Assembly: GCA_963837285.1 (NCBI GenBank)
Contig: CAWIMS010000005.1
Span: 1,844,437-1,908,436 of the forward strand
Source: an uncultured Actinomycetota bacterium
GTDB taxonomy: Bacteria > Actinomycetota > Actinomycetes > Mycobacteriales > Micromonosporaceae
DNA: 64,000 nucleotides
Direction: 5' to 3'
Shown: positions 33,149 to 50,454 of the stretch, piece by piece
Layout: every line of letters starts with the position of its first letter
Position numbering within the stretch: position 1 is the stretch's first letter
The notes under the pieces: generated by a model
What the model was told of the DNA's origin: nothing
Database searches by the model: none
Seen by the model: the letters and a program-made list of their open reading frames with translations, nothing else
Program-made: the position numbers and the translations under genes

Positions 33149-33679
33149 ATGACAACGGAGCGATCCGCCGGTGTCACCGGGCGGCTGTTGCGCGAGGTGT
33201 GCGGGCTCTTCGTCACCGGCGTCACCGTGGTGACCAGCGTGGCGGACGGCCGGCCGATCGGTACGACCGTCAACTCGTTCACCTCCGTCTCGCTGGAGCC
33301 CCCGCTCGTACTTTTCTGTCTGCACCGGCAGTCCCGGCTGCGACGTGGGTTGGCCGAGTCCCGCCGGTTCGCGGTCAACTTCCTGACCGGCAGGCAGGAA
33401 CAGCTCGCCTGGAGCTTCGCCACAAAGCACACCGGGATCGTCCCGCCGGACGCGTACGGCGACTGTGCCGTGGGGATGCCGGTGCTCAACGAGTCGCTGG
33501 CATTCATCGCCTGCACGATCACCGAGGAGTTCGAGGGCGGTGACCACACCATCGTGGTCGGTGAGGTCGTCGAGCTCGGCTCGCCGCGACGCGGCCACGA
33601 ACCGTTGATCTTCCACCGGGGAACGCTCAGCGCGCTCGAGGACCGGCTCTGGTCCGCCCAACCCATCTGGGACGGGTGA
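33149..33679 (+). CDS. Flavin reductase (HpaC-like)
   Basis: ATG 33149 follows AAGGAG. GLFVTGVTVVTS...GTTVNSFTSVSLEPPLVLFCL is the typical flavin reductase domain. Confidence 0.85.
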   Translation: MTTERSAGVTGRLLREVCGLFVTGVTVVTSVADGRPIGTTVNSFTSVSLEPPLVLFCLHRQSRLRRGLAESRRFAVNFLTGRQEQLAWSFATKHTGIVPPDAYGDCAVGMPVLNESLAFIACTITEEFEGGDHTIVVGEVVELGSPRRGHEPLIFHRGTLSALEDRLWSAQPIWDG

Positions 33680-33872
33680 GGCGACGACCACCCGCAACGA
33701 CCGGAAAGGCCGAACATGCGCAGCATGGGCAGCATGGGCAGCGCCCAGGACATGAAGTACGCGACGGTGCTCGCCGGTATCGCGGCGCCCGAGGTCGCGC
33801 CCGAGGTCGCCGAGCCAGTGGCCGCCCCGGCCGGCCGCTGACCCACAACGGAACTCCAGGAGAAGAGGTGCC

Positions 33873-35385: not shown

Positions 35386-36102
35386 TCAGGCCGTGCGGCT
35401 GCGCACGACCTCTTCGATGATCTGCCGGAGGGCATCGCGGGCGGGGTCGAGAGTGACCCCGGCCATGGCGAGCGCCGCGCCCGCGTCGCTGTCCGGGTCG
35501 TGGAGGATGCCGAGGAGCAGGTGCTCGGTACCGACGTAGTTGTGTCCCAGGCCGACCGCCTCGCTCAACGCCTTGGCCAGGGCCGCCCGGGTCGCCGGCT
35601 CGACCGGGATGACGGTTGGCGCGCCGTCGCCGGTCTCCCGCAGCCCGGAGCGGATTGTCTCGGGATCGCCGCCGAGCCGGGTCACCACCTGCACGGCAAG
35701 CGCCTGCGGATCGGCGAGCAGGCCGAGCAACAGGTCGGCCGGGCGGACCGCCGGATGCTCCAGCCGTCGGGCGTGCTCGGCGGCGTCGGTCAGCGCGTTA
35801 CGCGCACGCGGCGCGAGCCCCTTGAACGCGCCGCCGCGCACGACGTCGTCCATGGTCAGCGCGGATTGCCGCGGCGTGTACCGCTGTTGTGCGGCTTGCC
35901 GGCTCATCCCCAGATGGGTACCGATGTCCGACCACGAATAGCCCTCGGCCCGGGCCTGCTCGACGAAGTAGCCGATGAGGCGGTCACCGAGGCGGCCCAG
36001 TTCGGCGCTCAGCTCCTCCGCCGTCGTGATTTTGGTCAGCGGGTCGGTCCCATCGCGGTCGACCCGTTCGATCAGCGTGTACAACTCCACCGGGCTCGTC
36101 AT
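35386..36102 (-). CDS. Clp N-terminal (Clp_N repeat) domain protein with N-terminal HTH-like segment
   Basis: GYSWSDIGTHLGMSRQAAQQRY (HTH-like), followed by two Clp_N-type repeats (...HPAVRPADLLLGLL..., ...HNYVGTEHLLLGIL...). Confidence 0.75.
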   Translation of the reverse strand: MTSPVELYTLIERVDRDGTDPLTKITTAEELSAELGRLGDRLIGYFVEQARAEGYSWSDIGTHLGMSRQAAQQRYTPRQSALTMDDVVRGGAFKGLAPRARNALTDAAEHARRLEHPAVRPADLLLGLLADPQALAVQVVTRLGGDPETIRSGLRETGDGAPTVIPVEPATRAALAKALSEAVGLGHNYVGTEHLLLGILHDPDSDAGAALAMAGVTLDPARDALRQIIEEVVRSRTA

Positions 36103-36162: not shown

Positions 36163-37011
36163 CTATCCAGGGCGGCGGTGCGCCGTGACGAGATAGCTCT
36201 GCGGCCACCGGTTGTCGCCGCGCGGCACCGGCGGCCAGGTCCACCGGCCGAAGTGGGCACCGTCGTCGCCGTACCGGGTGACCTGCGCGTCCCAGCCGTG
36301 CCCCGCCAGCAGTGCCTCCGGGTCGTCCGTGCCGAACCGCATGGGCATTCCCGCGTCGGTGAACTTGCGCAGCCACGGCGCGAACGGCGGGAAGGTCAGC
36401 AACGAGCGCCCGACGAAATCGGTCAGCAGCGCGTCGCCGGCATGGGCCAGCCCGCCGATGGCGCCCAGGAGCTGGTCGATCTGCCCGGCGTCGAGGTACA
36501 TCAGCAGTCCCTCGACCAGCCAGACCGTCGTGCTGTCGCGCAGGCCGGCCGCCACCAGCGCGGCGGCCCAGCCGCCGGCCAGGTCAGCGCGGACCGGGGT
36601 CCGGTCGACCTTGGCCTGTGCGCCGAGGCCCGCGAGCCGGTCTTCCTTGACGGCCAGCACCTCGGGCCGGTCGAGCTCGAAGAACCGCACCCCGGCCGGC
36701 AGTGGCAGCCGGAACGCGCGAGCGTCCATGCCGGCGGCCAGCATGACGACCTGGCGGGCATGCCCGTCGGCGAGCAACCGCAGCAGCGCGTCGTCGAAGA
36801 AGCGGGTACGGATCGGAACCGTCATGCCGGTGCCGTCGCCGGGTGCCGACATGCTGGTGAGCAGGCGTTCCCCTTCCGGCCCCGCCAGCGCGGCGGCGTA
36901 CGGGTCCTGGAACAGCGCGTCCGGCCGGGCCGTCTCACGGGCCCGCTCGGCGGCCATCCACTGCGCGGTGAGCGACACCGGATGGGCGGGGGGAACGTCT
37001 ACATCGGACAC
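36163..37011 (-). CDS. SAM-dependent O-methyltransferase, leucine-carboxyl-methyltransferase (LCM/TIGR00027-like) family
   Basis: ORF 36163..37074. GTG 37011 lies 7 nt after the YcaO stop, with GAGG upstream. SLTAQWMAAERARE...DPYA...IRTRFFDD...VVMLAAGMDARAFRL. Confidence 0.75.
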   Translation of the reverse strand: MSDVDVPPAHPVSLTAQWMAAERARETARPDALFQDPYAAALAGPEGERLLTSMSAPGDGTGMTVPIRTRFFDDALLRLLADGHARQVVMLAAGMDARAFRLPLPAGVRFFELDRPEVLAVKEDRLAGLGAQAKVDRTPVRADLAGGWAAALVAAGLRDSTTVWLVEGLLMYLDAGQIDQLLGAIGGLAHAGDALLTDFVGRSLLTFPPFAPWLRKFTDAGMPMRFGTDDPEALLAGHGWDAQVTRYGDDGAHFGRWTWPPVPRGDNRWPQSYLVTAHRRPG

Positions 37012-37018
37012 AATCGCC

Positions 37019-38926
37019 TCACGGGAACGGATGCGGGTGCGGGTTGATGTCGGCCACGGTGAGCGTACGGTCACGGTACCCGAGCCGGTGTGGCACCTCG
37101 AACAGGCGGGGTAGGCCGTCCACCCTCCGGGCGCGGTGCCCGAACGTCATCGGCAGGGTGCCGGGGACGATCGCCTTCACGCAGGCGAAGCCTCCGGCGC
37201 GGTGTTCGGGTGTGGTCTGGTCCACCACGACGACGTCGAGGCCGTCACCGAGATAGCGGCCGAGCAGTTCGTCCAGGTCGGCGCGCAGGTCGTCGTGGTG
37301 GGGCCAGTGCCAGGTGCCGGCGAAGTCGCCGAACGGGCGGGGCTCGGCGTCGAGCAGGAAGTCGAAGCGCCCGAAGGCCTCCGGGTGGTTGTAGAGCAGC
37401 GCATGGTCGTCCATGACGCGTACCAGGTCGGGATCGCGCACCATGGCGGCGGCCCGGTCCCGGTCACGCGGGTAGGTCAGCAGCCGGTACTCGATCATCA
37501 TCGCCAGTTCCTGCAACGCGTTGACCACGCCGCGTTCCGGCGTGAGCGCGGAACCGCCGGCGCACATGGCCTTCGGGCGGTCCGGGTCGCCGGACCCGTC
37601 GACGGCCATCACCCAGAAGGACGGGATGCGCTGTTCAAGGGTGTCCGTGAAGACGAGGACCTGATAGCCGGTGTGATGGCGGATCCGTTCGACGATCAGG
37701 CCGATCCGCGGGCCGGCGGCGCTGGCCGGGTCGAGTCGCGGCACCGGCATCCGGGCGTACCAGGTCATCAGGAACGCGTCGCGTTCGGCGATCTCGACCA
37801 GGCCGTGGATGACGGCCTCCTCCAGGCAGCTGCCGAGGGCGCAGCCGTTGGAGATCTCGTAGACGAACGGCCGGTGCTCGGGCGGCCCACCGCCGTGCCG
37901 CCGGTGCAGGCCGTAGTACACATAGGACTCCGGTACCAGTACCGGCCGGCCGCTACCGAAGGAATAGCCCCACACCCAGTTCATGACCAGCTCGTCGTGG
38001 TAGGGCTGGAAGGGGAAGTCCGCGGTCGCGTACCGGTCCGGCGGGTACAGGCCGAGGGCTACCGGGTCGAGCGCCTCGCCGACCAGCTCCCGATGGCAGC
38101 CCCGCACGACGGTACGCCGGCCACCGGGCCGGACGCCGCCCATCCGTTCGAGCGCCTCGGCGATCGCGGTGAGCCGGGAGCTGCCGAAGTCGAGGGTACG
38201 CCCGTAGCCTTCCTCGCTGGCCGCGCCGCCCGCCCGGTGTGCCGTCACCATCGGCAGCAGGTAGTCGCCGCTGGGCCGCAGTGGATTGAGCAGCCCGGTC
38301 TCGGCGTCGACGTAGGAGGCGAGCAGCTCCGGTTCGACCGCGGCGAGATCCCGGATCCGTACCGTCGACGGCGACACCTTCGGCAGCGACCGTGGCACCA
38401 CCACCGCGGCGGCGGGGGTGTCGGCGGGCAGGCCGCCGCAGGCCGGGCAATCGGGGTCGGGCAGGAACCGGTGTACCCGTACCCCCAGCGTGGCGAGGTC
38501 GAGCATGACCGCCGCGCCGTCGACGCGGCTGGTCCGCCCGGCGGACCATGCGGCGACCTCACGTGCCACGATCGCGGCGGCGGCGTCGACAGCCAGCGGG
38601 CCGAGCAGCGGAGACACTGTCCGGGGCAGGGCGTCCTCGTGCGCTGACGGCAGGTCGCCGAACCCACGGGCGGCGGCGCGGCGGCGGCGCAGGCACGCCC
38701 TGCACCCGGCGACCCCGGGCCGGACCAGCGGCCCGATCACGATCCGGTCCAGCTCGCCCTGGACCGGCAGCCACGGCGTGCGGTCAGCGGTCGCCCACAC
38801 CGCTTCGGTACCCGCGACCGTGTCGCCCGCCACGATGGTAAGTGGGCGCTCTGTCCACTCCGGACGGAGAACGGGCACGAGTGCGTCGTAGAGGTCTCCC
38901 GAGCCGACGACGGTCACTGTGGTCAT
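37019..38926 (-). CDS. Fused E1-like/YcaO cyclodehydratase (PatD/TruD-type)
   Basis: 635 aa. The N-terminal half has Cys pairs (GCRACLRRR, DPDCPACGG). YcaO motifs SSRLTAIAEALERMGG and GLVEIAERDAFLMTWY. ATGA overlap with the upstream gene at 38923-38926. Confidence 0.9.
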   Translation of the reverse strand: MTTVTVVGSGDLYDALVPVLRPEWTERPLTIVAGDTVAGTEAVWATADRTPWLPVQGELDRIVIGPLVRPGVAGCRACLRRRRAAARGFGDLPSAHEDALPRTVSPLLGPLAVDAAAAIVAREVAAWSAGRTSRVDGAAVMLDLATLGVRVHRFLPDPDCPACGGLPADTPAAAVVVPRSLPKVSPSTVRIRDLAAVEPELLASYVDAETGLLNPLRPSGDYLLPMVTAHRAGGAASEEGYGRTLDFGSSRLTAIAEALERMGGVRPGGRRTVVRGCHRELVGEALDPVALGLYPPDRYATADFPFQPYHDELVMNWVWGYSFGSGRPVLVPESYVYYGLHRRHGGGPPEHRPFVYEISNGCALGSCLEEAVIHGLVEIAERDAFLMTWYARMPVPRLDPASAAGPRIGLIVERIRHHTGYQVLVFTDTLEQRIPSFWVMAVDGSGDPDRPKAMCAGGSALTPERGVVNALQELAMMIEYRLLTYPRDRDRAAAMVRDPDLVRVMDDHALLYNHPEAFGRFDFLLDAEPRPFGDFAGTWHWPHHDDLRADLDELLGRYLGDGLDVVVVDQTTPEHRAGGFACVKAIVPGTLPMTFGHRARRVDGLPRLFEVPHRLGYRDRTLTVADINPHPHPFP

Positions 38927-39924
38927 GCCGGTCCCTCCTCATCGCACAGGTCCGCGGCGGCGAGGGCGGCCAGGCCACGCAGGAACCGTTCCTCCGCAAG
39001 CCCGATGCCGAGCCGGTTGCACAGCAGGTGGGCGCAGTTGTCGATGGCGAACGCGGTGGCCGGCAACGGCATCCCGGTGGACGCTGCCAGGCCGGTCGGC
39101 GTGAACCGGTCAGACGCCTCCAGGCCCGCGAGGGTGCGCCACAGGTCGTCGACCGACCGGCACCACCCGTCCAGAAACGTGTCGCCGGTCGTCCCGGGAC
39201 CGCGTACCCGGCGGGCCACGGCCGCGAGAGTGGCGCGGCGCTTCTGGTACACCGCCGCGTCCCGGGCGGTGTCGTCGGCCGTGGACACGGCCTGTGCCCA
39301 GATCCGGCGGGTCCGGTCGAGCCGCCGCGCGAGGTGGGCCGGGTCGGACTCGCCAGCCAGCAGCGCCCCGAAGGCGAGCACCCGGCGGCGCTCGGCGGGC
39401 ACCTTCCGGCCGACCAGGTCCAGCGCGAGGTCGCTGGAGCGCTCGAAGTGCCGTTCGACGGCCGCGAGCGGGGCGCCGGTGCCGTACTTGTGGTGCTCGG
39501 GTCGGTACTCGAAAACCCGCAGAGAGTTGTTGGACTGCAAGGGAAGGTCGGGCTCGCCCGGCTCGGCGCGGTCAAGCACGCGAGCCTGCCGCGCGTATTC
39601 CTCGGGTGACAGCGTGTCGGCCGACGGGTGCACAGCGAAGAACCGGTGGCTGTGCCGACGAGCAGCGGTGCGAACATCGGTCGCACCGCTGCCGTCGTGC
39701 GGCAGCAGGCGCAGTCGAATGTGCGGACCGCCCCGCCAGTACCGCAGGAAGAAATACCGGGCGAGCAGGTTACCCTCCCGCAACTCGGCTACCAGCGGAA
39801 GCACCAGCTCGCGAAGCAACAGATCCGACGAACCCTGGTAGAACAGATGAACGCTCAGCCAGCCACGCCGGGATGGTGCGTCGGCTGGATCCGGCCGCAC
39901 CGCCGTCGGGATGTCTGGTCGCAC
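38923..39924 (-). CDS. LanB C-terminal-like protein (thiopeptide-type bacteriocin biosynthesis domain): glutamate-elimination enzyme or [4+2] pyridine synthase
   Basis: WLSVHLFYQGSSDLLLRELVLPLVAELREGNLLARYFFLRYWRGGPHIRLRL is the signature N-terminal block of the Lant_dehydr_C family. GTG start lies 34 nt after the precursor stop. Confidence 0.8.
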   Translation of the reverse strand: MRPDIPTAVRPDPADAPSRRGWLSVHLFYQGSSDLLLRELVLPLVAELREGNLLARYFFLRYWRGGPHIRLRLLPHDGSGATDVRTAARRHSHRFFAVHPSADTLSPEEYARQARVLDRAEPGEPDLPLQSNNSLRVFEYRPEHHKYGTGAPLAAVERHFERSSDLALDLVGRKVPAERRRVLAFGALLAGESDPAHLARRLDRTRRIWAQAVSTADDTARDAAVYQKRRATLAAVARRVRGPGTTGDTFLDGWCRSVDDLWRTLAGLEASDRFTPTGLAASTGMPLPATAFAIDNCAHLLCNRLGIGLAEERFLRGLAALAAADLCDEEGPA

Positions 39925-39958: not shown

Positions 39959-40129
39959 TCAGCAGCAGTAGCAGCTGCAACACAACAGGGGCGGCAGCAC
40001 GAAGGAGGCACCCACCTCGGGCATGCTGTAGCCAGCGGTCAGAGAGTCTTCCCAGGAATCACCTTCGACGCCGAGTGGTTCCAGCGTGAGGTCTTCCAGG
40101 GCGTCGGCGAACGCCTTGTCAACGGGCAT
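39959..40129 (-). CDS. Thiopeptide-type RiPP precursor peptide (56 aa): MPVDKAFADALEDLTLEPLGVEGDSWEDSLTAGYSMPEVGA / SFVLPPLLCCSCYCC
   Basis: This is the internal ATG 40129 of track ORF 39959..40309, preceded by GAGGAGGG with a 7-nt spacer. Acidic leader and a Cys-rich C-terminus (6 Cys, 2 Ser in the last 15 aa). It is first in the minus-strand RiPP operon. Confidence 0.85.
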   Translation of the reverse strand: MPVDKAFADALEDLTLEPLGVEGDSWEDSLTAGYSMPEVGASFVLPPLLCCSCYCC

Positions 40130-40203
40130 GGTTGCACCCTCCTCAATCAGAGGCGGCGGCCGCGGAGTGCGGCCGATGACAATTGCCGGAGGGTACTGAC
40201 GCA

Positions 40204-40461: not shown

Positions 40462-41424
40462 GTGAAACCGAGACTGGCCGACGACGTCCATTTCCTGCCC
40501 CGCCCCGATGGAGTATTCGTTCTGCTCACCTCGCAGCCGGATCGCGGTTTCGGGATCAGCGGCCGGCATGCGTACGAGTGGCTGACCCGCATCGCCCCGT
40601 TCCTCACCGGTGAACATGACCTGGACGCGCTCCTGGGTGGCGTCGGCGAGCAGCGGCGGGAGCGCGTCCGGGCGCTGATCGCGAGACTCCATAGTGGAGG
40701 CGCCCTTCGCGACGCGTCCGGTGACCTCCCGCACAGCCTGCCCGGGGAGGTCCGCGACCGGTACGCCCCGGTGATCGGCTTCATCGGCCGCGGTGCCGAC
40801 TCGCCGGAGCACCGGTTCCAGCGCTACCGGGAGTGCCACCCGGTCGTCGTCGGCTCCGGGCTGCTGGTCGCGCCGTTGGTGCAGGCGCTGCTGACGACCG
40901 GGGTGACACAGGTACAGGTGATCCGGACCGCCGACCAGCCAATCGACCTGGACCGGATGCGCGACTGCCTGGCGCTGGTGGGGCCCGACGCGTGGGAGCG
41001 GGTACGGGTCGGGACCGGGGACCCGACCGGCGCGCTGGCCGCCGCCGGCGGCGTCCTCCACGTCAGCGACGTCCCCGACCCGGACCGCAGGGACCGGCTG
41101 GTCGCGTCGGGTGCCGCACGCGGACGGATCTTCGGCTCGGCCACCGTCGACGGTGACGTGGCGCTGATCGGCCCGGTGGGCGACGCCGCACGCCTGAGCC
41201 CCGGCGCCGCGTGCCCGAGCCCCGGCCCGGAAACGGCCGCGTCCCCCACCGGGTCCGTCAGCGACCTCCTCGCGGGTCCGGTGCCCGCGCTCGTCGCCAA
41301 CCACCTCTGCGCGGCGTTCCTCAAGCAGGTCACCGGGCTGCCGAACGACGCGGCGGAGCGGATCGTCGAGCTCGACCTGGAGACGTTGCGCACCCGCGTA
41401 CGACCGGTGGTCACGACGCCATGA
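40462..41424 (+). CDS. Ocin-ThiF-like/E1-like protein (short form; probable leader-binding partner)
   Basis: ORF 40183..41424 with GTG 40462. HRFQRYRECHPVVVGSGLLVAPLVQALLTTGVTQVQVI is paralogous to the N-terminal half of the 47324..49333 product (RFQRYRNSPVLVVGAGAALVTLL). Confidence 0.65.
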   Translation: MKPRLADDVHFLPRPDGVFVLLTSQPDRGFGISGRHAYEWLTRIAPFLTGEHDLDALLGGVGEQRRERVRALIARLHSGGALRDASGDLPHSLPGEVRDRYAPVIGFIGRGADSPEHRFQRYRECHPVVVGSGLLVAPLVQALLTTGVTQVQVIRTADQPIDLDRMRDCLALVGPDAWERVRVGTGDPTGALAAAGGVLHVSDVPDPDRRDRLVASGAARGRIFGSATVDGDVALIGPVGDAARLSPGAACPSPGPETAASPTGSVSDLLAGPVPALVANHLCAAFLKQVTGLPNDAAERIVELDLETLRTRVRPVVTTP

Positions 41425-43001
41425 CCAGCACGGTGGACGGCACGGTGGACGGCACGGCGACCGGGTACTGGCACGACGCGATCTACGACCCACTCGGCAC
41501 GCTGCTCGACGGCGTCGAGGACCGCAACGTCAAAGAAGGCGATCCCGGCGAGCCGCTGCGGCACAAGACGTACCCTGGCCTGCCCCGCCGGGCGCTGCCA
41601 CCACCCGCGCTGACCTTGTGCACACCGCCGGCCGGGGCGTGGCTCGGCACCTTCCTCTACTACTCCTACGGCGTCCATCGCCACGACCCGGAGCCGGGCA
41701 GTTGGCCGTACCACCGGCTGGTGCCGTCCGCCCGTTGCTTCTTCCCGACCGAGTTCTACCTCGCGCTGGCGCCCGGCCGCGACGACGGTGACGAGGGAGT
41801 GCACTACTACGACCCGATGCACCACACGCTCGTCCGGCTCCGCGACGGCGACCACCGCGGCGTCCTTGCCGACGCCACCGGCGCGGACCTGAGCGGCGCC
41901 GCCGCCGTGGTGGTGCTGTCCGCGCTGTTCTGGAAGACCGCTTTCCGGTACCGCGACTACGCCTACCGGCTGTGCGCCCAGGAGGCGGGCCTGGTCGCCG
42001 GCAACGTCCTGCTGGTGGCCGAGGCGCTGGGGATGTCGGCGCACGTCCACTTCCTCTTCCGGGACCGGTCGGTGCACCGGCTGCTGGGCCTGCGGGAACC
42101 GGCCGAGAACGCCTTCGCCGTCGTCGCCCTGTACCCGTGTGACGCGAGCGGGCGCGGCCGGCCGCTGCGGCCCGCGCCGGCAGGTGCCGGCGACGCCGCC
42201 GAGGCCCTGCCGGACCTGCGCACCGTCCACGGTGAACCGTCCGGGTACGACGCCGATGCGGTGCCGGTGTTGACCCGCGTCAGCCGGGCCGCCCTCATGC
42301 CGACGGCCGCCTCGCCGGTCGGCGGCGTGGGGATCCGGCCCGCGCGACCGCCCGCGACGACCCCGGTCCTGACGGCACCGGTCGACCCGCCCGCCGGCAC
42401 GGACGCCGACCTGGCTGGCGCGCTGCGGGCCCGCGACTCCGGCCCCGGCTACCTGGCCTTCCGGCCGGCCGACGTGCCGGCGGAAGCCGTGTGGCGCATC
42501 GTCCGCGACGTGACCCGCCCGTACCCGTGCGATGTCGCCGCACCCTCCGGCGAGCCCGTGACCGACTGCCACCTGGTGGTCCGGTCGGCCACCGGCATCG
42601 CGGCGGGCGTCTACCGGGTGACGTCCGGGGTTGCCCTGGAGGCCCACCGCATCGGGCCGGTCGACGAGGTACTGCACGACATCGCCCTGGCCGACTTCAC
42701 GATGTCCACGGTGGACTTCGCCGGTGCCCCGCTGACCGCGTTCGTGTCCGTACCTCGCCGTGCCGCGGACGTTCTCGGAGCGCGTGGCTTCCGGATCCTC
42801 AGCCAGGCCGCCGGCATCGCCGCTCAGCGGATCTGTGTGGCGAGCGCGTACAGCGGGCTGGTGGCGCGGGTCCACAACGGATACTCCGCGGTGGCGGCGG
42901 AGCGGTGGCTCGGGCTGGCAGACGGCGACACGGTGCTGTTCCAGATCGCGATCGGCGCCGCGCGTCCCGCTCCGGCGCTCAAGCTCCCGGTGGTGTTCTG
43001 A
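41421..43001 (+). CDS. SagB-type FMN dehydrogenase (two nitroreductase-like halves), copy 1
   Basis: ATG 41421 forms an ATGA overlap with the upstream stop. HRLVPSARCFFPTEFYLAL...GVHYYDP and FRYRDYAYRLCAQEAGLVAGNVLLVAEALGM. Confidence 0.8.
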   Translation: MTSTVDGTVDGTATGYWHDAIYDPLGTLLDGVEDRNVKEGDPGEPLRHKTYPGLPRRALPPPALTLCTPPAGAWLGTFLYYSYGVHRHDPEPGSWPYHRLVPSARCFFPTEFYLALAPGRDDGDEGVHYYDPMHHTLVRLRDGDHRGVLADATGADLSGAAAVVVLSALFWKTAFRYRDYAYRLCAQEAGLVAGNVLLVAEALGMSAHVHFLFRDRSVHRLLGLREPAENAFAVVALYPCDASGRGRPLRPAPAGAGDAAEALPDLRTVHGEPSGYDADAVPVLTRVSRAALMPTAASPVGGVGIRPARPPATTPVLTAPVDPPAGTDADLAGALRARDSGPGYLAFRPADVPAEAVWRIVRDVTRPYPCDVAAPSGEPVTDCHLVVRSATGIAAGVYRVTSGVALEAHRIGPVDEVLHDIALADFTMSTVDFAGAPLTAFVSVPRRAADVLGARGFRILSQAAGIAAQRICVASAYSGLVARVHNGYSAVAAERWLGLADGDTVLFQIAIGAARPAPALKLPVVF

Positions 43002-43002: not shown

Positions 43003-45642
43003 ATGGCCGGGGCCGGCGAGATCGGGGTGCGGATCGCCGGCCTGCCCGCCGCCGCGGTCGAGGGGCTGCGGTGCCCGGACGCGGCCGGCTGCGTCGGGGA
43101 GATCCTCGCCCTGGAGGACCGGCTCGACGCCGAGGCGCGGGCCATCTGTGCGGCCCTGTACGAACTGATCGGCGACGATCGGGGGCCCGGCGGCAAGCCC
43201 CGGCTCGTCGGCCTCCGGCGGGCGATCCACGCCGGCCGGCGTCCCACGGCGCACCTGGTCCACGAGGACGTGCAGCGGGCTCTCGCGCCGGAACTCGCGG
43301 ACCTGATCCGGTGCTGGGCGGGCCGGCTGGACCGGCGCGACGCGCTGTACCGGCAGTTGCCCGACCTGCTGCGCGCCGACGTCGACGCGGCCGCGGCCGC
43401 GCTCCGCGCGACGGTGGCGGGCCCGACCATGCAACTGGGGCTGGTGTACTCGCACCCCGCCATGTTCCGCGACGCCCGCCACTGGGTCGCGCGGTCCGGC
43501 GGTCGCCCGGCCGACAAGGTGGCCGTCCGGCTGGCCCGGTACGTGTCCCGCGCAGCCGCCAAGACCAGTCCCCTGACCACGTTCACTGCCAGCGGCCTCG
43601 GCGAGTGGCGGGACGGCGGTCCCCCGCTCGCGCTGTGCGACCGGTCCCCGCGCAGCGCCGTCGAACTCGATCTCACCGCCCTGCACCGGATGATTGTCGG
43701 GCTGGCCACCCGGCCCGCCACCGCCGGGCAGATGCTGGTCCGGGTCAACCCGACCGCGACCGTCGACGGCGACCAGGTGCGGTTCGTCGCGCCCGGTGGT
43801 TCGGGCACCGCACGCGCGGTGCGGCTCACGCCGGCCGTCGACGCGCTGTTGCTCCGCGTGCCGCCCGGGACGACCCGTGCGCAACTGCGCGACCGGCTCG
43901 CCACGGCCGTCGCCGACCCGGCGCACGCCGCCCGCGCCGACGAGTTCGTCGACCGGCTGCTGCGCGCCGGACTGCTCGAACTGCATCTGCCCATCGCCGA
44001 CCAGGCGCTGCATCCCCGAGCGGTCCTGGCCTGGTTGGACGGGCCGGCCCGGGACCTGTCCGGGGATCCGGAGGTCGCCCGGTTGCGCACCGTCCTGGGC
44101 CAGATCGCCGACCTGCTCGACGCGTACGCGGCGTCGGCCGACGCCACGCGGCGGCTCGCGTACCGGGAACGGATCGACGGCGCCGCCCGGGATCTCGCGG
44201 GGCGGGATGACCCGCCCGCCTTCTACGAGAACGCCGTGCTGCCCGGTACCTGCCTGACCGCCGACACCGGCCGGTGGGCGACCACAATGGACGACCTGGC
44301 CGCCGTGACGGAGTTCGGCCGGCTGTACGACCCCGGTCTGCCGGCGCGGCTGATGCTGCCCACGTACGTCGCCGAACGGTACGGCCCCGGCGCCGCGATC
44401 CCGTTCCTGTGCTTCTACGCCGCCTGGGAGGCGGAACTGCGCGACCGACCGCGCCCGGCGGACCGGCTGGTGGCGGCGGCCGACCTCGATCCGGCGCAGT
44501 TGTGGACCCGGTCCGGCCAGGCCGGCACGGTGGCACAGGATCTGACGACAAGCTCGATTCCCGACCTCGCCCGGTTGGGCCGGCTACGGCAGGCGGCCTC
44601 GGCACTCCTGGGCCGGGCACCGGTCGGCGCTGACGCGGCCGTCACGATCGCGCCCGGCGAACTGCGGCGAGCGGCCGCCGGCTGTCCCGGCGGCCCATCC
44701 CAGGCGGGGCAGCCGCTGTCGTGTTACGTGCAGCCCTACATCGCCGGTGGCCACACCCGGCTCGTCTTCAATTCGGCCCGGTTCGGCCTCGGCACCGGCC
44801 GTACCCGCATCCGGCACCTGGTCCGCACGGCGCACGGACCCGATGCGGTAGCGGACCCGTCCCAGCCACTGCCGGCACCCCACGACGGGCCGCTGTACGT
44901 GGAGGTCGAGTCGGCGTTCGGCTCCTCGCTCAACCAACGTGACCCGGCTGTCGACCTCGTCCTCGCGTACCCGGGCACGGTCAGCGCCCGGCCCGAGCGG
45001 TGCCGGGTGCCGCTCGGCGAGCTGCGGGTCGTCCACGATCCGTCGGCGGGACGGGTCCGTCTGGAGTGGACCCGTGCCGGCCGGGAGGTGCAGCCGGTCC
45101 ACCTCGGACTGCTGGCCGTGCCGATGCTGCCACCGGCGGTGCGTTTCCTGGTCGGCGCGTTCAGTGCGGCGTCGTACCTGTTCACACCGTCGCTGCTGGC
45201 GTGGAGCGAGGTCGCCGGAGCCACCCCGTTGGACATCCGTTCCTGGCCGCGCCTGCAGGCCGGCGGCGTGACCCTGCGCCGAGCCGGCTGGTGGGTGCCC
45301 TCGGCGCTGGTACCCCGGCGCGCTGCCGGCCAGTCGGACGCGGCCTACCTGCTGGACCTCGCACGCTGGCGGCGCCGGGTGGGGCTGCCGGAACGGTGCT
45401 TCGTCCGCGCCGCGGCGAGCGGCTGGCGAGCCGACGCCGCTCTGCTGGGCAAGGAGCGCAAGCCGATGTACGTCGACTTCGGCAGCTGGCACCTCGTCCG
45501 GGTGTTCGAACGGATGGCCGGCCCCGCCGACGTCGATATCACCGTCGAGGAGGCCCTGCCGGACCTCGCCGACCTGCCCCGCACCGAGTCGGGAGAGCGG
45601 CGCGTGGTGGAACTCGTCGTCGAGCTGCCCGGGTATCCATAG
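43003..45642 (+). CDS. Split LanB, N-terminal glutamylation-type lantibiotic dehydratase
   Basis: ATG 43003 lies 1 nt after the upstream stop. 879 aa. VSRAAAKTSPLTTFTASGLG matches the LanB (R..TPFG.FA)-type block. There is no GPHxRxR elimination block. Confidence 0.85.
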   Translation: MAGAGEIGVRIAGLPAAAVEGLRCPDAAGCVGEILALEDRLDAEARAICAALYELIGDDRGPGGKPRLVGLRRAIHAGRRPTAHLVHEDVQRALAPELADLIRCWAGRLDRRDALYRQLPDLLRADVDAAAAALRATVAGPTMQLGLVYSHPAMFRDARHWVARSGGRPADKVAVRLARYVSRAAAKTSPLTTFTASGLGEWRDGGPPLALCDRSPRSAVELDLTALHRMIVGLATRPATAGQMLVRVNPTATVDGDQVRFVAPGGSGTARAVRLTPAVDALLLRVPPGTTRAQLRDRLATAVADPAHAARADEFVDRLLRAGLLELHLPIADQALHPRAVLAWLDGPARDLSGDPEVARLRTVLGQIADLLDAYAASADATRRLAYRERIDGAARDLAGRDDPPAFYENAVLPGTCLTADTGRWATTMDDLAAVTEFGRLYDPGLPARLMLPTYVAERYGPGAAIPFLCFYAAWEAELRDRPRPADRLVAAADLDPAQLWTRSGQAGTVAQDLTTSSIPDLARLGRLRQAASALLGRAPVGADAAVTIAPGELRRAAAGCPGGPSQAGQPLSCYVQPYIAGGHTRLVFNSARFGLGTGRTRIRHLVRTAHGPDAVADPSQPLPAPHDGPLYVEVESAFGSSLNQRDPAVDLVLAYPGTVSARPERCRVPLGELRVVHDPSAGRVRLEWTRAGREVQPVHLGLLAVPMLPPAVRFLVGAFSAASYLFTPSLLAWSEVAGATPLDIRSWPRLQAGGVTLRRAGWWVPSALVPRRAAGQSDAAYLLDLARWRRRVGLPERCFVRAAASGWRADAALLGKERKPMYVDFGSWHLVRVFERMAGPADVDITVEEALPDLADLPRTESGERRVVELVVELPGYP

Positions 45643-47327
45643 TGGACGGCTTGAGCGCGGCCCGCCGGTACCTGCGCGACTGCGGCCACGCCGAAGTCAG
45701 CGGCGCCGTCGACGAGGCGACCGTGCCGCCGCCGTTCCCGACGCTGCGCGGGGCGCCGCGGATACCGTTGCCGTACCCGATCGGCCAGGGCATCGCCGTC
45801 GACGCGGCGGGCAGCCCGGTATCGTTGTCCCGCGCGGTCCTGGGCGACCTCGCCGGGTACCTTCTCGGGCTGACCCGCATCCACTGGCTGCCCGACGCCG
45901 AGCTGGAGACGCTGAGCCGCACGGGCCTGCTGTCCGCGGACGCGGACAGCTCGGTGGTGCCCGGGCGGCCGACCCCGTCCGGGGGCCGCCGCTACCCGTC
46001 CGAGCTCTACCTGGCCAGCCGGGTGCTGCCGGGCCTGCCCGCCGGGCTGTACCGCTACGCGCCGGCCCGGCACGCGCTGGAACGGTTGCGGGCCACCGAC
46101 ACCCGTGCCGACGTGCTCGGGTCGCTGTCCACGCCGCCGCACGGCACACCGGACGTGATCCTGTTCCTCACCAGCGTGTTCTGGCGCACCGCGGTCAGGT
46201 ACGGCGAGTACGCCTACCGCCTGCAGGCCCTCGACGCCGGTGCGCTGGCCGGGCATGCCCTCGCCCTCGGAGACGCCGCCGGACTGCACGCGACGATCCA
46301 CCTCGACTTCGCCGACGGGCCGGTCCACGGTCTCCTCCGGGTCGATGCGGCGCGGGAGAACTGCCAGGTGATCGTCACGATGACGGCCGAAGCGGGACCG
46401 GCGGACGGTCCGCCGCCAGCGGGCACCAGCCCGGAGCCTGCGCCTCCGATCGCGCTTCCCGGCCCGGCGCGGGACGTGCTGCCGCTGTCCGCCGCGCTGC
46501 ACGCCGCTTCCGCGCGCGATGCCTCTCTGCGCGATGCCTCTCTGCGCGATGCCTCTCTGCGCACCGCCTCCCCGCACGCCGCCTCCCCGCACGCCGCCTC
46601 CCCGCACGCCGCCTCCGTGCGCGACGCGCCTACGGGCGCCGGCAACGGCGTTGAGGCGTGTGCCGGGCAGAACGCGTCAGGCGGAGTCCGGCTCGCCGGC
46701 CGGCCGGTGCGCGCCGCCGCCGGGATACCGCACCGCTATTCGGCGACGCCGGGATTCCGCCCGGACCCGATCCGTGCCGACGACCTCGCCGCCATCCTCG
46801 CCACCGCGTGCGCCGGTTACGCCGGTGACCTCCCGGACACCACCGGGTACGCCACCCAGGTCCCGCTGTACGTCATCGCCAACCGCGTGACGGGCCTGAC
46901 CGCCGGTGCGTACCGGTACGACCCGGTGTCCGGGCGGCTCGCGGCGGTGCGGACCGGCGATCTGCTCCCCGTACTCGCGCCCGGCCTGACCGTGTCGTAC
47001 CCGGCCGTGTCCGAGGCCGGTGCCGTCGTCGTCGCGGTCGGCGACTACGAGCGCGGCTTCCCGCGGCGCGGGGACCGCTGGTACCGGATGCACACCATCG
47101 GGTGCGGCCTGGTCGCCGAACGCGTCTGCCTGGCGGCGGCGGCCCTGCGGCTCGGATCGCACCTGCGGTGCGACTTCGATCCGGCGGTCGTCGGTCACGT
47201 GCTCGGACTCGACCCGCGGGCGCAGACACCGGTCGCGATGGTCCTTGCCGGGCCGCCACGGCTGCCGCTGCCGCTGCACGTCCCGTTGACGCTGGGTGCC
47301 GTATCCACAAGGGAGGCAGGACGATGA
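45642..47327 (+). CDS. SagB-type FMN dehydrogenase (two nitroreductase-like halves), copy 2, with repeat linker
   Basis: GTG 45642 shares one nt with the upstream TAG (TAGTG). GGRRYPSELYLASRVLPGLPAGLYRYAPARHAL and VRYGEYAYRLQALDAGALAGHALALGDAAGL. The second half contains GAYRYDPVSGRL. Confidence 0.8.
   Translation: MDGLSAARRYLRDCGHAEVSGAVDEATVPPPFPTLRGAPRIPLPYPIGQGIAVDAAGSPVSLSRAVLGDLAGYLLGLTRIHWLPDAELETLSRTGLLSADADSSVVPGRPTPSGGRRYPSELYLASRVLPGLPAGLYRYAPARHALERLRATDTRADVLGSLSTPPHGTPDVILFLTSVFWRTAVRYGEYAYRLQALDAGALAGHALALGDAAGLHATIHLDFADGPVHGLLRVDAARENCQVIVTMTAEAGPADGPPPAGTSPEPAPPIALPGPARDVLPLSAALHAASARDASLRDASLRDASLRTASPHAASPHAASPHAASVRDAPTGAGNGVEACAGQNASGGVRLAGRPVRAAAGIPHRYSATPGFRPDPIRADDLAAILATACAGYAGDLPDTTGYATQVPLYVIANRVTGLTAGAYRYDPVSGRLAAVRTGDLLPVLAPGLTVSYPAVSEAGAVVVAVGDYERGFPRRGDRWYRMHTIGCGLVAERVCLAAAALRLGSHLRCDFDPAVVGHVLGLDPRAQTPVAMVLAGPPRLPLPLHVPLTLGAVSTREAGR
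46515..46619 (+). repeat. Seven in-frame 15-nt tandem units (RDASL x3, RTASP, HAASP x2, HAASV)
   Basis: CGCGATGCCTCTCTG x3, then CGCACCGCCTCCCCG, CACGCCGCCTCCCCG x2 and CACGCCGCCTCCGTG. The array sits between the two halves of dehydrogenase copy 2. Confidence 0.9.
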
Positions 47328-49353: not shown

Positions 49354-50454
49354 ATGCAGACACCGACCTGGCGAGCAGTCCACGTGTACTACTACGACGA
49401 GAACAAGGACGACCTGATCCTCGACGCGGTCCGGCCGGTGCTGCGCCGCGTCGCCGAGGACGTGCGGTGCGCGTACTTCGTGCGACACTGGCGGCGCGGG
49501 CCGCACGTGCGGATTCCGGTGCTCGCGACGCCCTCGGCCTTCACGTCGGTGGTCGAGCCCGCCGTCGCCGACATCGTCCGCGGCTACCTCGCGCGGCGAC
49601 CGTCCACGACCGCCCTGCCACCGGAGGCGGTCCTGCTGCCGATGCACGAACGCCTCGCGGAACTGGAGATGGAGACCGGACCGCTGCGCCCGCTCGTGCC
49701 CGACAACAGCGTTCTGTTCACGGAGCACGACCGGCGCCTCGACATGCTCGACGGCGAGGTGGGTTCGGACCTGCTCGCCGAGTTCTACGCCACGACCAAC
49801 GACCTCGCGTTCGCCATGCTGGAGGAGATCCGGTCCGGCCGTACCCGAGAGTTCGTGGGCCTGTCGCTCATGCTCGCGGTCGCCCACGCGTTCGGTGGCG
49901 AACCGGCCATCGAGCGCGGGTTCGTCTCGTTCCGGTCGCATGCCGAGGCGTTCCTGTACGGATCCTCCGACCAGGTGGGGATCCGCGCCCGCTTCGACCG
50001 GGAGTACCTGGCCAACGCCCGGGCGCTGACCGGGCTGGTACGCGCCGTAATGGACACCGTGGACGGCCGGTCCACCGCCGTGCCGTTCGTCACCGAGTGG
50101 GTGGCCGCGTTACGTCCACTCTGGACGGTGTCCGAGTCGCTCGTCGCCTCCGGCCGCCTGCGGCTCACCGCCGGGGTACCGGAAGGCGACAGCGACGCCG
50201 CGGCGGGAAAGCTCGCCGACAGCCCGATACACCGGCTCATGCTCGGCAGTGACACGTTCCGGCGACTCGTCTTCGACGATCCGCAGTTCACGCGGTACCG
50301 CCTGGTGCTCAACTACACGTATCTGCACCTGGCCCGGCTCGGGATCATGGGGTACGGCCGGTACCGCCTGTGCCACCTGGCCGCGAACGCGGTCGAAAAG
50401 GCGCTTGGCGTCGATGCCATACGGATCGTCGAGGAAGCGGCAGGCCGGCGGTAG
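49354..50454 (+). CDS. LanB C-terminal-like protein, second copy (elimination enzyme or [4+2] pyridine synthase)
   Basis: ATG 49354 follows GGAGGA. WRAVHVYYYDENKDDLILDAVRPVLRRVAEDVRCAYFVRHWRRGPHVRIPV. Confidence 0.8.
   Translation: MQTPTWRAVHVYYYDENKDDLILDAVRPVLRRVAEDVRCAYFVRHWRRGPHVRIPVLATPSAFTSVVEPAVADIVRGYLARRPSTTALPPEAVLLPMHERLAELEMETGPLRPLVPDNSVLFTEHDRRLDMLDGEVGSDLLAEFYATTNDLAFAMLEEIRSGRTREFVGLSLMLAVAHAFGGEPAIERGFVSFRSHAEAFLYGSSDQVGIRARFDREYLANARALTGLVRAVMDTVDGRSTAVPFVTEWVAALRPLWTVSESLVASGRLRLTAGVPEGDSDAAAGKLADSPIHRLMLGSDTFRRLVFDDPQFTRYRLVLNYTYLHLARLGIMGYGRYRLCHLAANAVEKALGVDAIRIVEEAAGRR

What the first reader, a model, noticed from the sequence alone, without database searches (positions are those of the whole stretch)
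39959..40129. Precursor with a GE2270/thiomuracin-like leader end but an azole-poor hydrophobic core SFVLPPLLCCSCYCC
Seen: a 56-aa ORF with a strong SD (GAGGAGGG-N7-ATG). The leader ends ...DSLTAGYSMPEVGA and the core is S1 F V L P P L L C9 C10 S11 C12 Y C C. Established (from memory, to be verified): the GE2270 and thiomuracin precursors end their leaders ...ESLTAGHGM(P/T)EVGA. Their cores, S1CNC(V/F)C..C9C10S11C12.., use Ser1 and Ser11 for pyridine formation, giving a 29-membered ring. Inference: the S1/C9-C10-S11-C12 register is identical here, so the same ring size is expected. However, positions 2-8 (FVLPPLL) contain no Cys/Ser/Thr, whereas known members carry three azoles and the EF-Tu-contacting residues there. 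Both Ser residues would be consumed by the cycloaddition, leaving no Dha/Dhb tail, and the tail would be thiazole-Tyr-thiazole-thiazole. This is a structural intermediate between thiopeptides and azole-free pyritides, and I do not recognise it as a described compound.
Basis: partly seen in the sequence, partly recalled or inferred. Interest (0 to 1): 0.9.

Follow-up and report, generated by a model that had tools for sequence, protein, structure and literature searches.

The report
Thiopeptide precursor with azole-poor ring
This is a real 56-residue precursor gene inside a complete thiopeptide-antibiotic gene cluster; its predicted product keeps the GE2270-type 29-atom pyridine ring but has seven ordinary hydrophobic residues where known members carry thiazoles and the target-binding Asn, so it is an undescribed variant of a well-known class, not a new class.

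Summary
The ORF exists exactly as described, on the minus strand at 39959-40129, with GAGGAGGG 7 nt before the ATG. It passes NCBI's curated model for thiomuracin/GE37468-family precursors. It aligns without gaps to PbtA, the GE2270 precursor, from the leader end through C9-C10-S11-C12. It sits in a full thiopeptide cluster. That cluster has a TbtB-like glutamylase, a small Lant_dehydr_C partner, a fused E1-like/YcaO cyclodehydratase, two F-type proteins (one with a PbtF-like RRE), two SagB dehydrogenases and a pyridine synthase above the TbtD/PbtD equivalog cutoff. Four other cores with the same leader occur in metagenomes and one MAG. Between relatives, synonymous codon changes outnumber replacements. 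The likely product is a pyridine macrocycle closed between Ser1 and Ser11 (29 atoms), with Phe-Val-Leu-Pro-Pro-Leu-Leu unmodified, thiazoles at Cys9, 10, 12, 14 and 15, and possibly a C-terminal methyl ester. It lacks the Asn that EF-Tu binders need. No paper in the searchable library contains the core. However, azole-poor thiopeptides (lactazoles) and azole-free pyritides are already known, and related uncharacterised precursors exist. I rate it a new variant of a known kind, with moderate interest (0.42, not 0.9).

The parts
40137..40144 (-). Shine-Dalgarno GAGGAGGG, 7 nt upstream of the precursor ATG
   Evidence: Read directly from the sequence.
40007..40129 (-). Leader region of the precursor (41 aa, ...EDSLTAGYSMPEVGA)
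   Evidence: NF033399 scores 35 bits against a cutoff of 29. The leader aligns ungapped to the PbtA leader. The block A10-L19 and D28...S42 is invariant in 5 family members.
39959..40006 (-). Core SFVLPPLLCCSCYCC plus stop codon
   Evidence: Translation. C9-C10-S11-C12 is in register with PbtA. The same core is found on L001, L002 and P0001.
38923..39924 (-). C protein: 333-aa Lant_dehydr_C, inferred to be the glutamate-elimination partner of B (TbtC role). It is not the pyridine synthase.
   Evidence: Pfam PF14028 at 127 bits and TIGR03891 at 80 bits. The TbtD_PbtD model scores only 79 bits against a cutoff of 325. There is no TbtD/PbtD hit in the PDB. Orthologues follow the precursor in L003, L004 and L006-8. 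The gene model is confirmed as an exact database protein.
37019..38926 (-). G protein: fused E1-like (cyclo_dehyd_2) plus YcaO cyclodehydratase, 635 aa. Its ATG overlaps the stop codon of C.
   Evidence: PF02624 at 270 bits, TIGR03604 at 339 bits and TIGR03882 at 139 bits. PDB hits to TruD and LynD at E~1e-23. 63% identical in L003 and 53% in L006. The gene model is exact.
36163..37011 (-). LCM/TIGR00027-family SAM methyltransferase, 282 aa, starting 7 nt after the stop of G. It is a candidate C-terminal carboxyl methyltransferase, but its membership in the pathway is uncertain.
   Evidence: PF04072 at 153 bits and TIGR00027 at 201 bits. The same position after G holds a 62% identical gene in L003, whose core has no Tyr. 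Against: a 92.7% identical gene sits in a non-thiopeptide context on L009, and the gene is absent after G in L006/7.
40462..41424 (+). F' protein: 320-aa ocin_ThiF-like paralogue of the N-terminal half of F. It is transcribed divergently from the precursor.
   Evidence: TIGR03693 at 82 bits. 32% identical to F residues 11-325. Orthologues are present in L003, L005 and L006. The gene model is exact.
41421..43001 (+). E1: SagB-type azoline dehydrogenase, 526 aa
   Evidence: PF00881 and TIGR03605 at 90 bits. Orthologues at 53% in L003 and 45% in L006. The gene model is exact.
43003..45642 (+). B: tRNA-Glu-dependent glutamylation enzyme (Lant_dehydr_N), 879 aa, a TbtB homologue
   Evidence: PF04738. 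PDB 6EC7 at E=7e-88 over the full length. The gene model is exact.
45642..47327 (+). E2: second SagB-type dehydrogenase, 561 aa
   Evidence: TIGR03605 at 145 bits. 30% identical to E1. It is present on the P0002 contig and in L006/7 but absent from L003. The gene model is exact.
47324..49333 (+). F: full-length ocin_ThiF-like protein, 669 aa, with an N-terminal leader-binding RRE. Its C-terminal half has only a weak YcaO-like signal.
   Evidence: TIGR03693 at 129 bits. Residues 15-92 match the PbtF RRE, which was crystallised with PbtA (8T19_A, E=3e-10). The Pfam YcaO hit is 39.8 bits and partial. There is no YcaO hit in the PDB and no similarity to G. The gene model is exact.
49354..50454 (+). 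D: [4+2] pyridine synthase, 366 aa, a TbtD/PbtD equivalog
   Evidence: NF045556 at 446 bits against a cutoff of 325. PDB hits to TbtD (5WA3, E=5e-66) and PbtD (5W98, E=3e-50). 63% identical in L003. The gene model is exact.
35386..36102 (-). ClpC2 (Rv2667)-like protein, 238 aa, 60 nt downstream of the methyltransferase. Its link to the cluster is doubtful.
   Evidence: The PDB search matches both the Rv2667 N-terminal domain (8ADA, E=5e-10) and ClpC2/ClpC1 N-terminal domains (E~1e-18 to 1e-20). The gene is not present next to the related clusters L003 and L006/7.

Best explanation
The ORF is the structural gene (the 'A' gene) of a complete thiopeptide cluster of the thiomuracin/GE2270 type.

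Proposed pathway. All steps are inferred from homology; none has been shown chemically.
1. The 41-residue leader is bound by the RRE of the F protein. Its conserved ALEDLTLEPL and DSLTAGYSMPEVGA blocks are the likely contacts.
2. The G cyclodehydratase (E1-like plus YcaO), together with the SagB dehydrogenases E1 and E2, converts Cys9, 10, 12, 14 and 15 into thiazoles. Cys15 would become a C-terminal thiazole-4-carboxylate.
3. B (TbtB-like, Glu-tRNA dependent) and the 333-aa C protein dehydrate Ser1 and Ser11 to dehydroalanines.
4. D (a TbtD/PbtD equivalog) joins Dha1 to the Dha11/Cys10-carbonyl aza-diene. Water and leader-carboxamide are then lost, giving a trisubstituted pyridine.

Predicted product:
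- a 29-membered ring: pyridine-CO-Phe-Val-Leu-Pro-Pro-Leu-Leu-Thz-Thz;
- a tail: Thz-Tyr-Thz-Thz;
- the pyridine carries two thiazolyl groups and one carboxamide, not three thiazolyls, because residue 2 is Phe;
- calculated monoisotopic M = 1458.463, [M+H]+ = 1459.470.

The adjacent LCM-family methyltransferase may add a C-terminal methyl ester, giving [M+H]+ 1473.486. I put this step at about 0.4.

The ring lacks Asn3 and the three azoles of the EF-Tu binders. The target is therefore probably not EF-Tu and is unknown.
For: - Precursor family membership: NF033399 scores above its cutoff for this peptide and for 9 of 10 relatives tested.
- The alignment to PbtA is ungapped and includes C9-C10-S11-C12.
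- D passes the TbtD/PbtD equivalog cutoff and matches TbtD and PbtD structures.
- B matches TbtB over its full length.
- The N-terminus of F matches the PbtF RRE that was crystallised with PbtA.
- G is a strong YcaO/TOMM cyclodehydratase.
- There are two SagB dehydrogenases.
- The gene set and order are conserved in the MAG locus L003 and in L006/7.
- Coupled starts suggest operons. The G start codon overlaps the stop codon of C, and the F start codon overlaps the stop codon of E2; both starts have an upstream RBS.
- Four of the five family cores keep S1...S11.
- Codon differences point to purifying selection on the peptide.
- The mass formula was checked by reproducing thiomuracin GZ at 1366.26, a value recalled from memory.
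- The 29-atom EF-Tu binders need a conserved Asn (PMC3917276; PMC7136475). This core has Val at that position.
- For the methyl ester: the LCM family is a carboxyl-methyltransferase family (established knowledge). The gene keeps its place after G in L003, whose core (S, I, P, L and C only) offers no side-chain acceptor.
Against: - There is no transcript, peptide or mass-spectrometry evidence.
- Characterised thiopeptide pathways are reported to need multiple azoles for Dha formation and for the [4+2] step (PMC9247985 introduction). Here, no azole can form at positions 2-8, and residue 2 next to Dha1 is Phe. The B, C and D enzymes would have to work with azoles only on the C-terminal side.
- The relative L003 has S1...S12, so the register is not invariant in the family.
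- Which Cys residues are cyclised or oxidised cannot be predicted.
- The role of the methyltransferase is weakened by a 92.7% identical gene in an unrelated context (L009) and by its absence from L006/7.
- The elimination role of C is assigned by exclusion only.
Confidence: 0.75

Rival explanations
1. The cluster is cryptic or its enzymes cannot complete maturation of this azole-poor core. The actual product would then be a linear or partly processed azole peptide, or nothing at all.
For: Characterised pathways are reported to require several azoles before dehydration and cycloaddition (PMC9247985). Lactazole was itself a cryptic product (PMC7210931). No expression data exist. The region is genomically plastic.
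Against: All genes are intact, with coupled starts. The same architecture with equally azole-poor cores persists across relatives that have diverged to 43-63% enzyme identity. Codon differences in the precursor are mostly synonymous. Persistence of a dedicated TbtD equivalog argues that cyclisation happens.
Confidence: 0.13
2. The leader/core boundary or the cycloaddition partners differ from S1/S11. For example, the conserved leader Ser at position -7 (GYSMPEVGA) might take part, giving a different ring.
For: Ser-7 is invariant in the five closest sequences. L003 shows that the spacing can shift to S12.
Against: The position is Gly in PbtA. In the wider family it is Gly or Ser (GFGMTE, GYGMHE, GHGMTE), so it behaves as a leader residue. 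The GA|S junction is conserved in all relatives. S1 and S11 are the only Ser/Thr residues in the core.
Confidence: 0.03
3. The peptide or a near-identical core is already linked to a described natural product, or is already catalogued in a published thiopeptide genome-mining dataset, so nothing here is new.
For: The key datasets and papers could not be read: Schwalen 2018, the cyclothiazomycin cluster paper and the thiomuracin specificity papers. NCBI's model would already name this gene a thiomuracin/GE37468-family peptide. From memory, the cyclothiazomycin core ends in ...CCSCCCC, like the relatives P0003, P0004 and L003.
Against: Full-text searches for the core and its sub-motifs returned no papers. 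No thiopeptide discovery title from 2019 onward fits. All relatives come from metagenomes or MAGs and are unnamed or 'hypothetical protein'. The enzymes are singletons at 90% identity.
Confidence: 0.1

Closest known systems
GE2270A precursor PbtA and the pbt pathway (Planobispora rosea)
   Same: The leader end and the core register are shared: ESLTAGHGMPEVGA|S...C9C10S11C12, in an ungapped alignment. The pyridine synthase is homologous to PbtD, and the RRE of F is homologous to PbtF. A 29-atom ring is expected.
   Different: Core positions 2-8 are FVLPPLL here and CNCVCGF in PbtA. This core therefore has no azoles at positions 2, 4 and 6 and no Asn3, which is needed for EF-Tu binding. The tail is CYCC rather than a Ser/Pro tail. 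No P450, radical-SAM or N-methyltransferase tailoring genes were seen among the conserved genes.
Thiomuracin pathway TbtA-G (Thermobispora bispora)
   Same: B matches the TbtB structure 6EC7 at E=7e-88. D matches TbtD at E=5e-66 and passes the TbtD/PbtD equivalog model. The A-G enzyme logic is the same.
   Different: This cluster has an extra F-like paralogue and a second dehydrogenase. The core lacks the N-terminal thiazoles. It has only two Ser residues, so no Dha residues would remain in the tail after the cycloaddition.
Lactazole A (laz cluster, Streptomyces lactacystinaeus)
   Same: Lactazole is a natural thiopeptide with low Cys/Ser/Thr content, an unmodified residue at position 2 (so the pyridine bears a carboxamide) and several unmodified residues inside the ring (PMC7210931).
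   Different: Lactazole has a 32-membered ring. LazC is only weakly similar to TbtD, whereas D here is a TbtD/PbtD equivalog. In the laz cluster the elimination domain is fused to the dehydrogenase (LazF); here C is a separate protein. The leader family also differs.
Pyritides (MroA1/A2, MroBCD, Micromonospora rosaria)
   Same: Both have a pyridine macrocycle whose ring interior is made of unmodified residues, formed by a split LanB pair plus a [4+2] enzyme (PMC9247985).
   Different: Pyritide precursors have no Cys and their cluster has no azole-forming genes. Here there are six Cys, a YcaO, F proteins and two dehydrogenases. This is therefore a thiopeptide, not a pyritide.
Cyclothiazomycin precursor (from memory; not verified here)
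   Same: It has a Cys-rich ...CCSCCCC C-terminus flanking the second cycloaddition Ser, as in the relatives P0003, P0004 and L003.
   Different: It has a larger ring and extra Ser/Thr for Dha/Dhb and a thioether bridge.

Membership tests
Thiopeptide (pyridine-type RiPP) biosynthetic cluster | Short precursor with an N-terminal leader and a Cys/Ser-rich C-terminal core | tested here: met
   The 56-aa ORF has 6 Cys and 2 Ser in a 15-aa core. NF033399 scores above its cutoff.
Thiopeptide (pyridine-type RiPP) biosynthetic cluster | YcaO cyclodehydratase with an ocin_ThiF-like (RRE) partner and an azoline dehydrogenase | tested here: met
   G: PF02624 at 270 bits and TIGR03604 at 339 bits. F and F': TIGR03693, plus a PbtF RRE match. 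E1 and E2: TIGR03605.
Thiopeptide (pyridine-type RiPP) biosynthetic cluster | Split LanB dehydratase (glutamylation plus elimination proteins) | tested here: met
   B matches TbtB (6EC7, E=7e-88). C is a stand-alone Lant_dehydr_C/TIGR03891 protein. Its elimination role is inferred by exclusion.
Thiopeptide (pyridine-type RiPP) biosynthetic cluster | Dedicated [4+2] pyridine synthase | tested here: met
   NF045556 equivalog at 446 bits against a cutoff of 325. TbtD and PbtD structures are matched.
Thiopeptide (pyridine-type RiPP) biosynthetic cluster | Mature product contains a six-membered N-heterocycle, azoles and a macrocycle | not testable with these tools
   This needs HRMS/MS or NMR of the product.
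GE2270/thiomuracin/GE37468 subgroup (29-membered, EF-Tu-binding, series d) | Precursor of the thiazolyl_GetA family with a ...TAGxxMxEVGA|S leader end | tested here: met
GE2270/thiomuracin/GE37468 subgroup (29-membered, EF-Tu-binding, series d) | Ser1 and Ser11 flanked by C10 and C12, giving the 29-atom ring register | tested here: met
   The register is ungapped against PbtA. It is conserved in 4 of 5 family cores but not in L003.
GE2270/thiomuracin/GE37468 subgroup (29-membered, EF-Tu-binding, series d) | Azole-forming residues at core positions 2, 4 and 6 (tri-thiazolyl pyridine centre) | tested here: not met
   Positions 2-8 are FVLPPLL. PbtA has C2, C4 and C6.
GE2270/thiomuracin/GE37468 subgroup (29-membered, EF-Tu-binding, series d) | Conserved Asn/MeAsn at position 3, required for EF-Tu binding | tested here: not met
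   The residue is Val3 here. The Asn requirement is stated in PMC3917276 and PMC7136475.
Pyritides | No Cys in the core and no azole-forming genes in the cluster | tested here: not met
   The core has six Cys. A YcaO, F proteins and dehydrogenases are present. The definition is taken from PMC9247985.
Lactazole-like thiopeptides | LazC-type pyridine synthase, LazF fusion of elimination domain and dehydrogenase, compact five-enzyme cluster | tested here: not met
   D is a TbtD/PbtD equivalog. C and the dehydrogenases are separate proteins. The features are taken from PMC7210931. No Laz sequences were compared directly.

The most novel reading that the evidence does not exclude
The product is a 29-membered thiopeptide that has abandoned EF-Tu and uses its unmodified hydrophobic Pro-rich loop (FVLPPLL) to bind a different target. 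The one concrete lead is the ClpC1 N-terminal domain. A full-length ClpC2 (Rv2667)-like protein is encoded 60 nt downstream of the methyltransferase. In mycobacteria, ClpC2 acts as a decoy that protects against the hydrophobic cyclic peptide cyclomarin, which binds the ClpC1 N-terminal domain (PMC13192320, PMC10892018). If this is right, it would be the first thiopeptide aimed at the Clp system. It would also show that a TbtD-type pathway naturally tolerates an azole-free ring interior.
Probability: 0.05. Interest if true: 0.8.

Novelty: new variant of a known kind. Interest (0 to 1): 0.42.

Why it matters
If the predicted product is made, three things follow.

1. Thiomuracin/GE2270-type enzymes (B, C and D) would be shown to dehydrate and cyclise, in nature, a substrate whose ring interior carries no azoles. 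That is useful for engineering, because these pathways have been regarded as needing many azoles.
2. It would add a scaffold with the GE2270 ring size but none of the EF-Tu pharmacophore, so a different and still unknown bioactivity is likely.
3. It would point to a small, metagenome-only group of related precursors with variable Pro-rich loops. These look like a natural library displayed on a constant pyridine/poly-thiazole clamp.

This is an incremental step within a well-understood class, not a new kind of system.

Tried and rejected
- **Pyridine synthase assignment.** I first assumed that the Lant_dehydr_C gene beside the precursor (38923-39924) was the pyridine synthase. I rejected this. 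It scores 79 bits against a cutoff of 325 on the TbtD/PbtD model and has no PDB TbtD hit. The gene at 49354-50454 is the equivalog.
- **Second YcaO.** I first read the cluster as having two YcaO cyclodehydratases. I downgraded this. The 669-aa protein is an F protein with a PbtF-like RRE. Its YcaO signal is weak and partial, with no PDB YcaO hit and no similarity to G.
- **Literature searches.** Searches for SFVLPPLLCCSCYCC, for CCSCYCC, and for CCSCCC combined with 'thiopeptide' gave 0 papers. A search for the thiomuracin core string also gave 0. A scan of thiopeptide genome-mining papers from 2019 onward gave nothing that matches.
- **Papers not held.** These could not be read: Schwalen 2018, Wang 2010 (cyclothiazomycin), Zhang 2016, Bogart 2019, Hudson 2015 and Burkhart 2017.
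- **Extra precursor copies in the window.** None were found (tblastn).
- **Attenuator or terminator after the precursor.** None was found, and the fold is no better than shuffled sequence.
- **tRNA and Rfam scans of the window.** Nothing was found.
- **ClpC2-like gene as a conserved cluster member.** It is not found in L003 or L006/7.
- **Methyltransferase as a firm cluster member.** This is weakened by L009.
- **Taxon of the source.** I could not determine it. The source is an NCBI/ENA genome with a 3.04-Mb contig. It has about 69-70% G+C, and its nearest genomic relative is an uncultured Actinomycetota MAG.
Full report
**Observation**

The finding is accurate. A minus-strand ORF at 39959-40129 encodes MPVDKAFADALEDLTLEPLGVEGDSWEDSLTAGYSMPEVGASFVLPPLLCCSCYCC. 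GAGGAGGG lies at 40137-40144, 7 nt upstream of the ATG. The core has only two hydroxyl residues (S1, S11) and six Cys. Positions 2-8 (FVLPPLL) cannot form azoles or dehydroamino acids.

**Is it a real gene?**

Four lines of evidence say yes.
- The peptide scores 35.0 bits on NCBIfam NF033399, 'thiomuracin/GE37468 family thiazolyl RiPP peptide' (cutoff 29).
- A search of PDB chains finds PbtA, the GE2270 precursor (8T19_B), at E=2e-4. The alignment is ungapped: ESLTAGHGMPEVGASCNCVCGFCCSC against DSLTAGYSMPEVGASFVLPPLLCCSC.
- The exact peptide is encoded on three other public contigs.
- Related peptides with the same leader carry four further cores: SDILPPLLCCSCYCC, SAILACLCCCSCCC, SVGPPPVCCCSCCC and SIPPIPPLCCCSCCC.

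Codon comparison supports purifying selection. Against L004 there are 19 synonymous and 7 replacement codon differences; against L002 there are 5 and 0.

**Surroundings**

The ORF sits in a complete thiopeptide cluster. Gene starts were confirmed because the same proteins exist as exact entries from the source genome.

Downstream on the minus strand:
- C, a 333-aa Lant_dehydr_C protein (38923-39924).
- G, a 635-aa E1-like plus YcaO cyclodehydratase (37019-38926). PF02624 scores 270 bits and TIGR03604 339 bits; it resembles TruD and LynD in the PDB.
- An LCM/TIGR00027 methyltransferase (36163-37011).

Divergent on the plus strand:
- F' (40462-41424, ocin_ThiF-like).
- E1 (41421-43001, SagB dehydrogenase).
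- B (43003-45642). It matches the TbtB structure 6EC7 at E=7e-88.
- E2 (45642-47327, a second SagB dehydrogenase).
- F (47324-49333). Its N-terminus matches the PbtF RRE crystallised with PbtA.
- D (49354-50454).

D passes the NCBIfam equivalog model for the TbtD/PbtD pyridine synthase: 446 bits against a cutoff of 325. It also matches TbtD (E=5e-66) and PbtD (E=3e-50) structures.

I corrected two of my own first readings.
- The Lant_dehydr_C gene next to the precursor is not the pyridine synthase. It scores 79 bits on that model and has no TbtD hit. By exclusion, it is the elimination partner of B.
- The 669-aa protein is an F protein, not a second cyclodehydratase. Its YcaO signal is weak and partial, and it has no similarity to G.

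**Conservation of the system**

- The MAG locus L003 (uncultured Actinomycetota, CAVUDJ010000016.1) has the same layout, A-C-G-MT and, divergently, F'-E1-B-F-D. Enzyme identity is 45-63%. It lacks E2.
- Loci L006/L007 carry a more distant precursor (core SFIPICFTCTTCSCCC). Their order is A-C-G-F'-E1-B-E2 on one strand.
- A profile search of 1.84 billion representative proteins found only 16 relatives. All are short peptides with an ...AG(Y/H)(S/G)M(P/T)E(V)GA|S leader end and Cys-rich C-termini around one Ser.
- Several of these are also azole-poor and Pro-rich between S1 and C10-S11: SVPNPPVPVCSCCCCW, SAIGPGFFVCSCCCCICGA and SVISSTFFVCSCCCCC.
- The relatives looked up come from metagenomes and are unnamed or 'hypothetical protein'. 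Nine of the ten tested pass NF033399.

The window peptide therefore belongs to a rare, uncharacterised branch of the thiomuracin/GE2270 precursor family.

**Mechanism (inferred from homology)**

1. The leader is bound by the F-protein RRE.
2. G with E1/E2 makes thiazoles at Cys9, 10, 12, 14 and 15.
3. B and C dehydrate Ser1 and Ser11.
4. D performs the formal [4+2] cycloaddition between Dha1 and the Dha11/Cys10-carbonyl aza-diene. Water and leader-carboxamide are then lost.

Counting backbone atoms gives 9 residues x 3, plus 2, which equals 29 ring atoms. This is the same as in GE2270.

Because residue 2 is Phe, the carbonyl of Ser1 stays an amide. The pyridine therefore bears two thiazolyl groups and one carboxamide, as in lactazole, rather than three thiazolyls. 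No Ser or Thr is left for tail dehydroamino acids.

Calculated masses are M 1458.463 and [M+H]+ 1459.470, or 1473.486 for the methyl ester. The same arithmetic reproduces thiomuracin GZ at 1366.26, a value I recall from memory.

**The methyltransferase**

For a role in the pathway:
- It starts 7 nt after the stop of G.
- It keeps that position in L003 (62% identity), whose core contains only S, I, P, L and C. The C-terminal carboxylate is then the obvious common acceptor.
- LCM-family enzymes are carboxyl methyltransferases (established knowledge).

Against:
- A 92.7% identical gene lies on contig L009 with no thiopeptide gene within 10 kb. DNA similarity to the window is confined to the gene itself plus a 214-bp segment.
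- L006/7 lack it.

I therefore treat the methyl ester as possible (about 0.4), not as established.

**Target**

Reviews state that the 29-atom thiopeptides bind EF-Tu and require a conserved Asn/MeAsn (PMC3917276; PMC7136475). This core has Val3 and none of the ring thiazoles. No EF-Tu gene was detected among the window ORFs that I scanned. EF-Tu is thus an unlikely target. This is an inference.

A ClpC2 (Rv2667)-like protein is encoded just after the methyltransferase. ClpC2 is reported as a decoy against cyclomarin, which binds the ClpC1 N-terminal domain. The gene is absent from the related clusters, so this stays a low-probability lead.

**Comparison with known systems**

- By curated models it belongs to the thiomuracin/GE2270 precursor family and uses a TbtD/PbtD-type synthase.
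- It fails two features that define the EF-Tu-binding subgroup: azoles at positions 2, 4 and 6, and Asn3.
- It is not a pyritide, because Cys and azole-forming enzymes are present.
- It is not lactazole-like in its enzymes. It does share lactazole's low Cys/Ser/Thr content and unmodified residue 2.
- That precedent, and the statement that lactazole-like clusters were 251 of 508 predicted thiopeptide BGCs, lower the surprise.

**Novelty and score**

No paper in the searchable library contains the core or its sub-motifs. No recent thiopeptide discovery paper matches. The enzymes are singletons at 90% identity. I could not read the main thiopeptide genome-mining dataset, so prior cataloguing cannot be excluded.

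Verdict: a genuine precursor in an intact cluster, and a new variant of a known kind. Interest is 0.42.

The main open point is biochemical. Characterised pathways are said to need multiple azoles for dehydration and cycloaddition, so it is untested whether TbtB/C/D-type enzymes will process a substrate with no azoles N-terminal to Cys9.

Noticed in passing
window 35386-36102 (-): A full-length ClpC2 (Rv2667)-like protein lies 60 nt downstream of the cluster's methyltransferase. It has an N-terminal domain like Rv2667 and a C-terminal Clp_N domain like ClpC1-NTD/ClpC2. ClpC2 is a reported decoy for antibiotics that bind the ClpC1 N-terminal domain. The gene is not conserved next to the related clusters L003 and L006/7.
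   Followed up: partly
L009 9976-10841 and 11774-11986; window 36177-37042 and 19372-19585: The methyltransferase gene alone (92.5% DNA identity) and a 214-bp non-coding-looking segment are shared with a metagenome contig whose other genes are unrelated. In L009 the two pieces lie 0.9 kb apart. In the window they lie 16.6 kb apart, with the ClpC2-like gene and the type II PKS genes in between. The region looks like a recombination-prone BGC island. The 214-bp piece is unexplained, with no tRNA or Rfam hit.
   Followed up: partly
L003 10001-10168 (+): The MAG relative has the core SIPPIPPLCCCSCCC, with the second Ser at position 12. The same chemistry would give a 32-membered ring. The L003 cluster lacks the second dehydrogenase E2 and is followed by MMPL and ABC transporter genes.
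   Followed up: partly
metagenome contigs of P0003 (JGI 3300050046) and P0015 (JGI 3300041965): Three to five tandem ORFs of 54-64 aa surround the precursor homologue. These are probably multi-precursor loci.
   Followed up: no
window 47324-49333 (+): The F protein has a partial Pfam YcaO match (39.8 bits, model positions 78-225) in its C-terminal half. It has no YcaO hit in the PDB and no similarity to G. This may be a degenerate YcaO-like domain.
   Followed up: partly
window 4241-14510 (-): A second, unrelated Lant_dehydr_N-only protein (929 aa, 4241-7030) lies beside P450 genes and an NRPS module with TubC-dock, C, A and MT domains (9957-14510). It could be a PEARL-like or hybrid RiPP/NRPS locus.
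   Followed up: no
window about 22000-34000: A type II polyketide cluster lies directly beside the thiopeptide cluster. It has KS-alpha and KS-beta (28810-30162, 27605-28927), an ACP (27309-27563), a ketoreductase, a cyclase/aromatase, a SnoaL-like protein, a halogenase-like flavoprotein (31464-33119), a luciferase-like monooxygenase and a SARP regulator.
   Followed up: no
window 50472-55939 (+): Downstream of the pyridine synthase lie four genes: a polysaccharide deacetylase, a DUF11/DUF7933 repeat protein, a DinB_2 protein with a pentapeptide-repeat segment (51918-52784) and a 943-aa SARP/NB-ARC/TPR regulator. A tblastn search of L003, which extends only about 1.1 kb beyond its D gene, found no match to any of them, and it is unknown whether they serve the thiopeptide cluster.
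   Followed up: no
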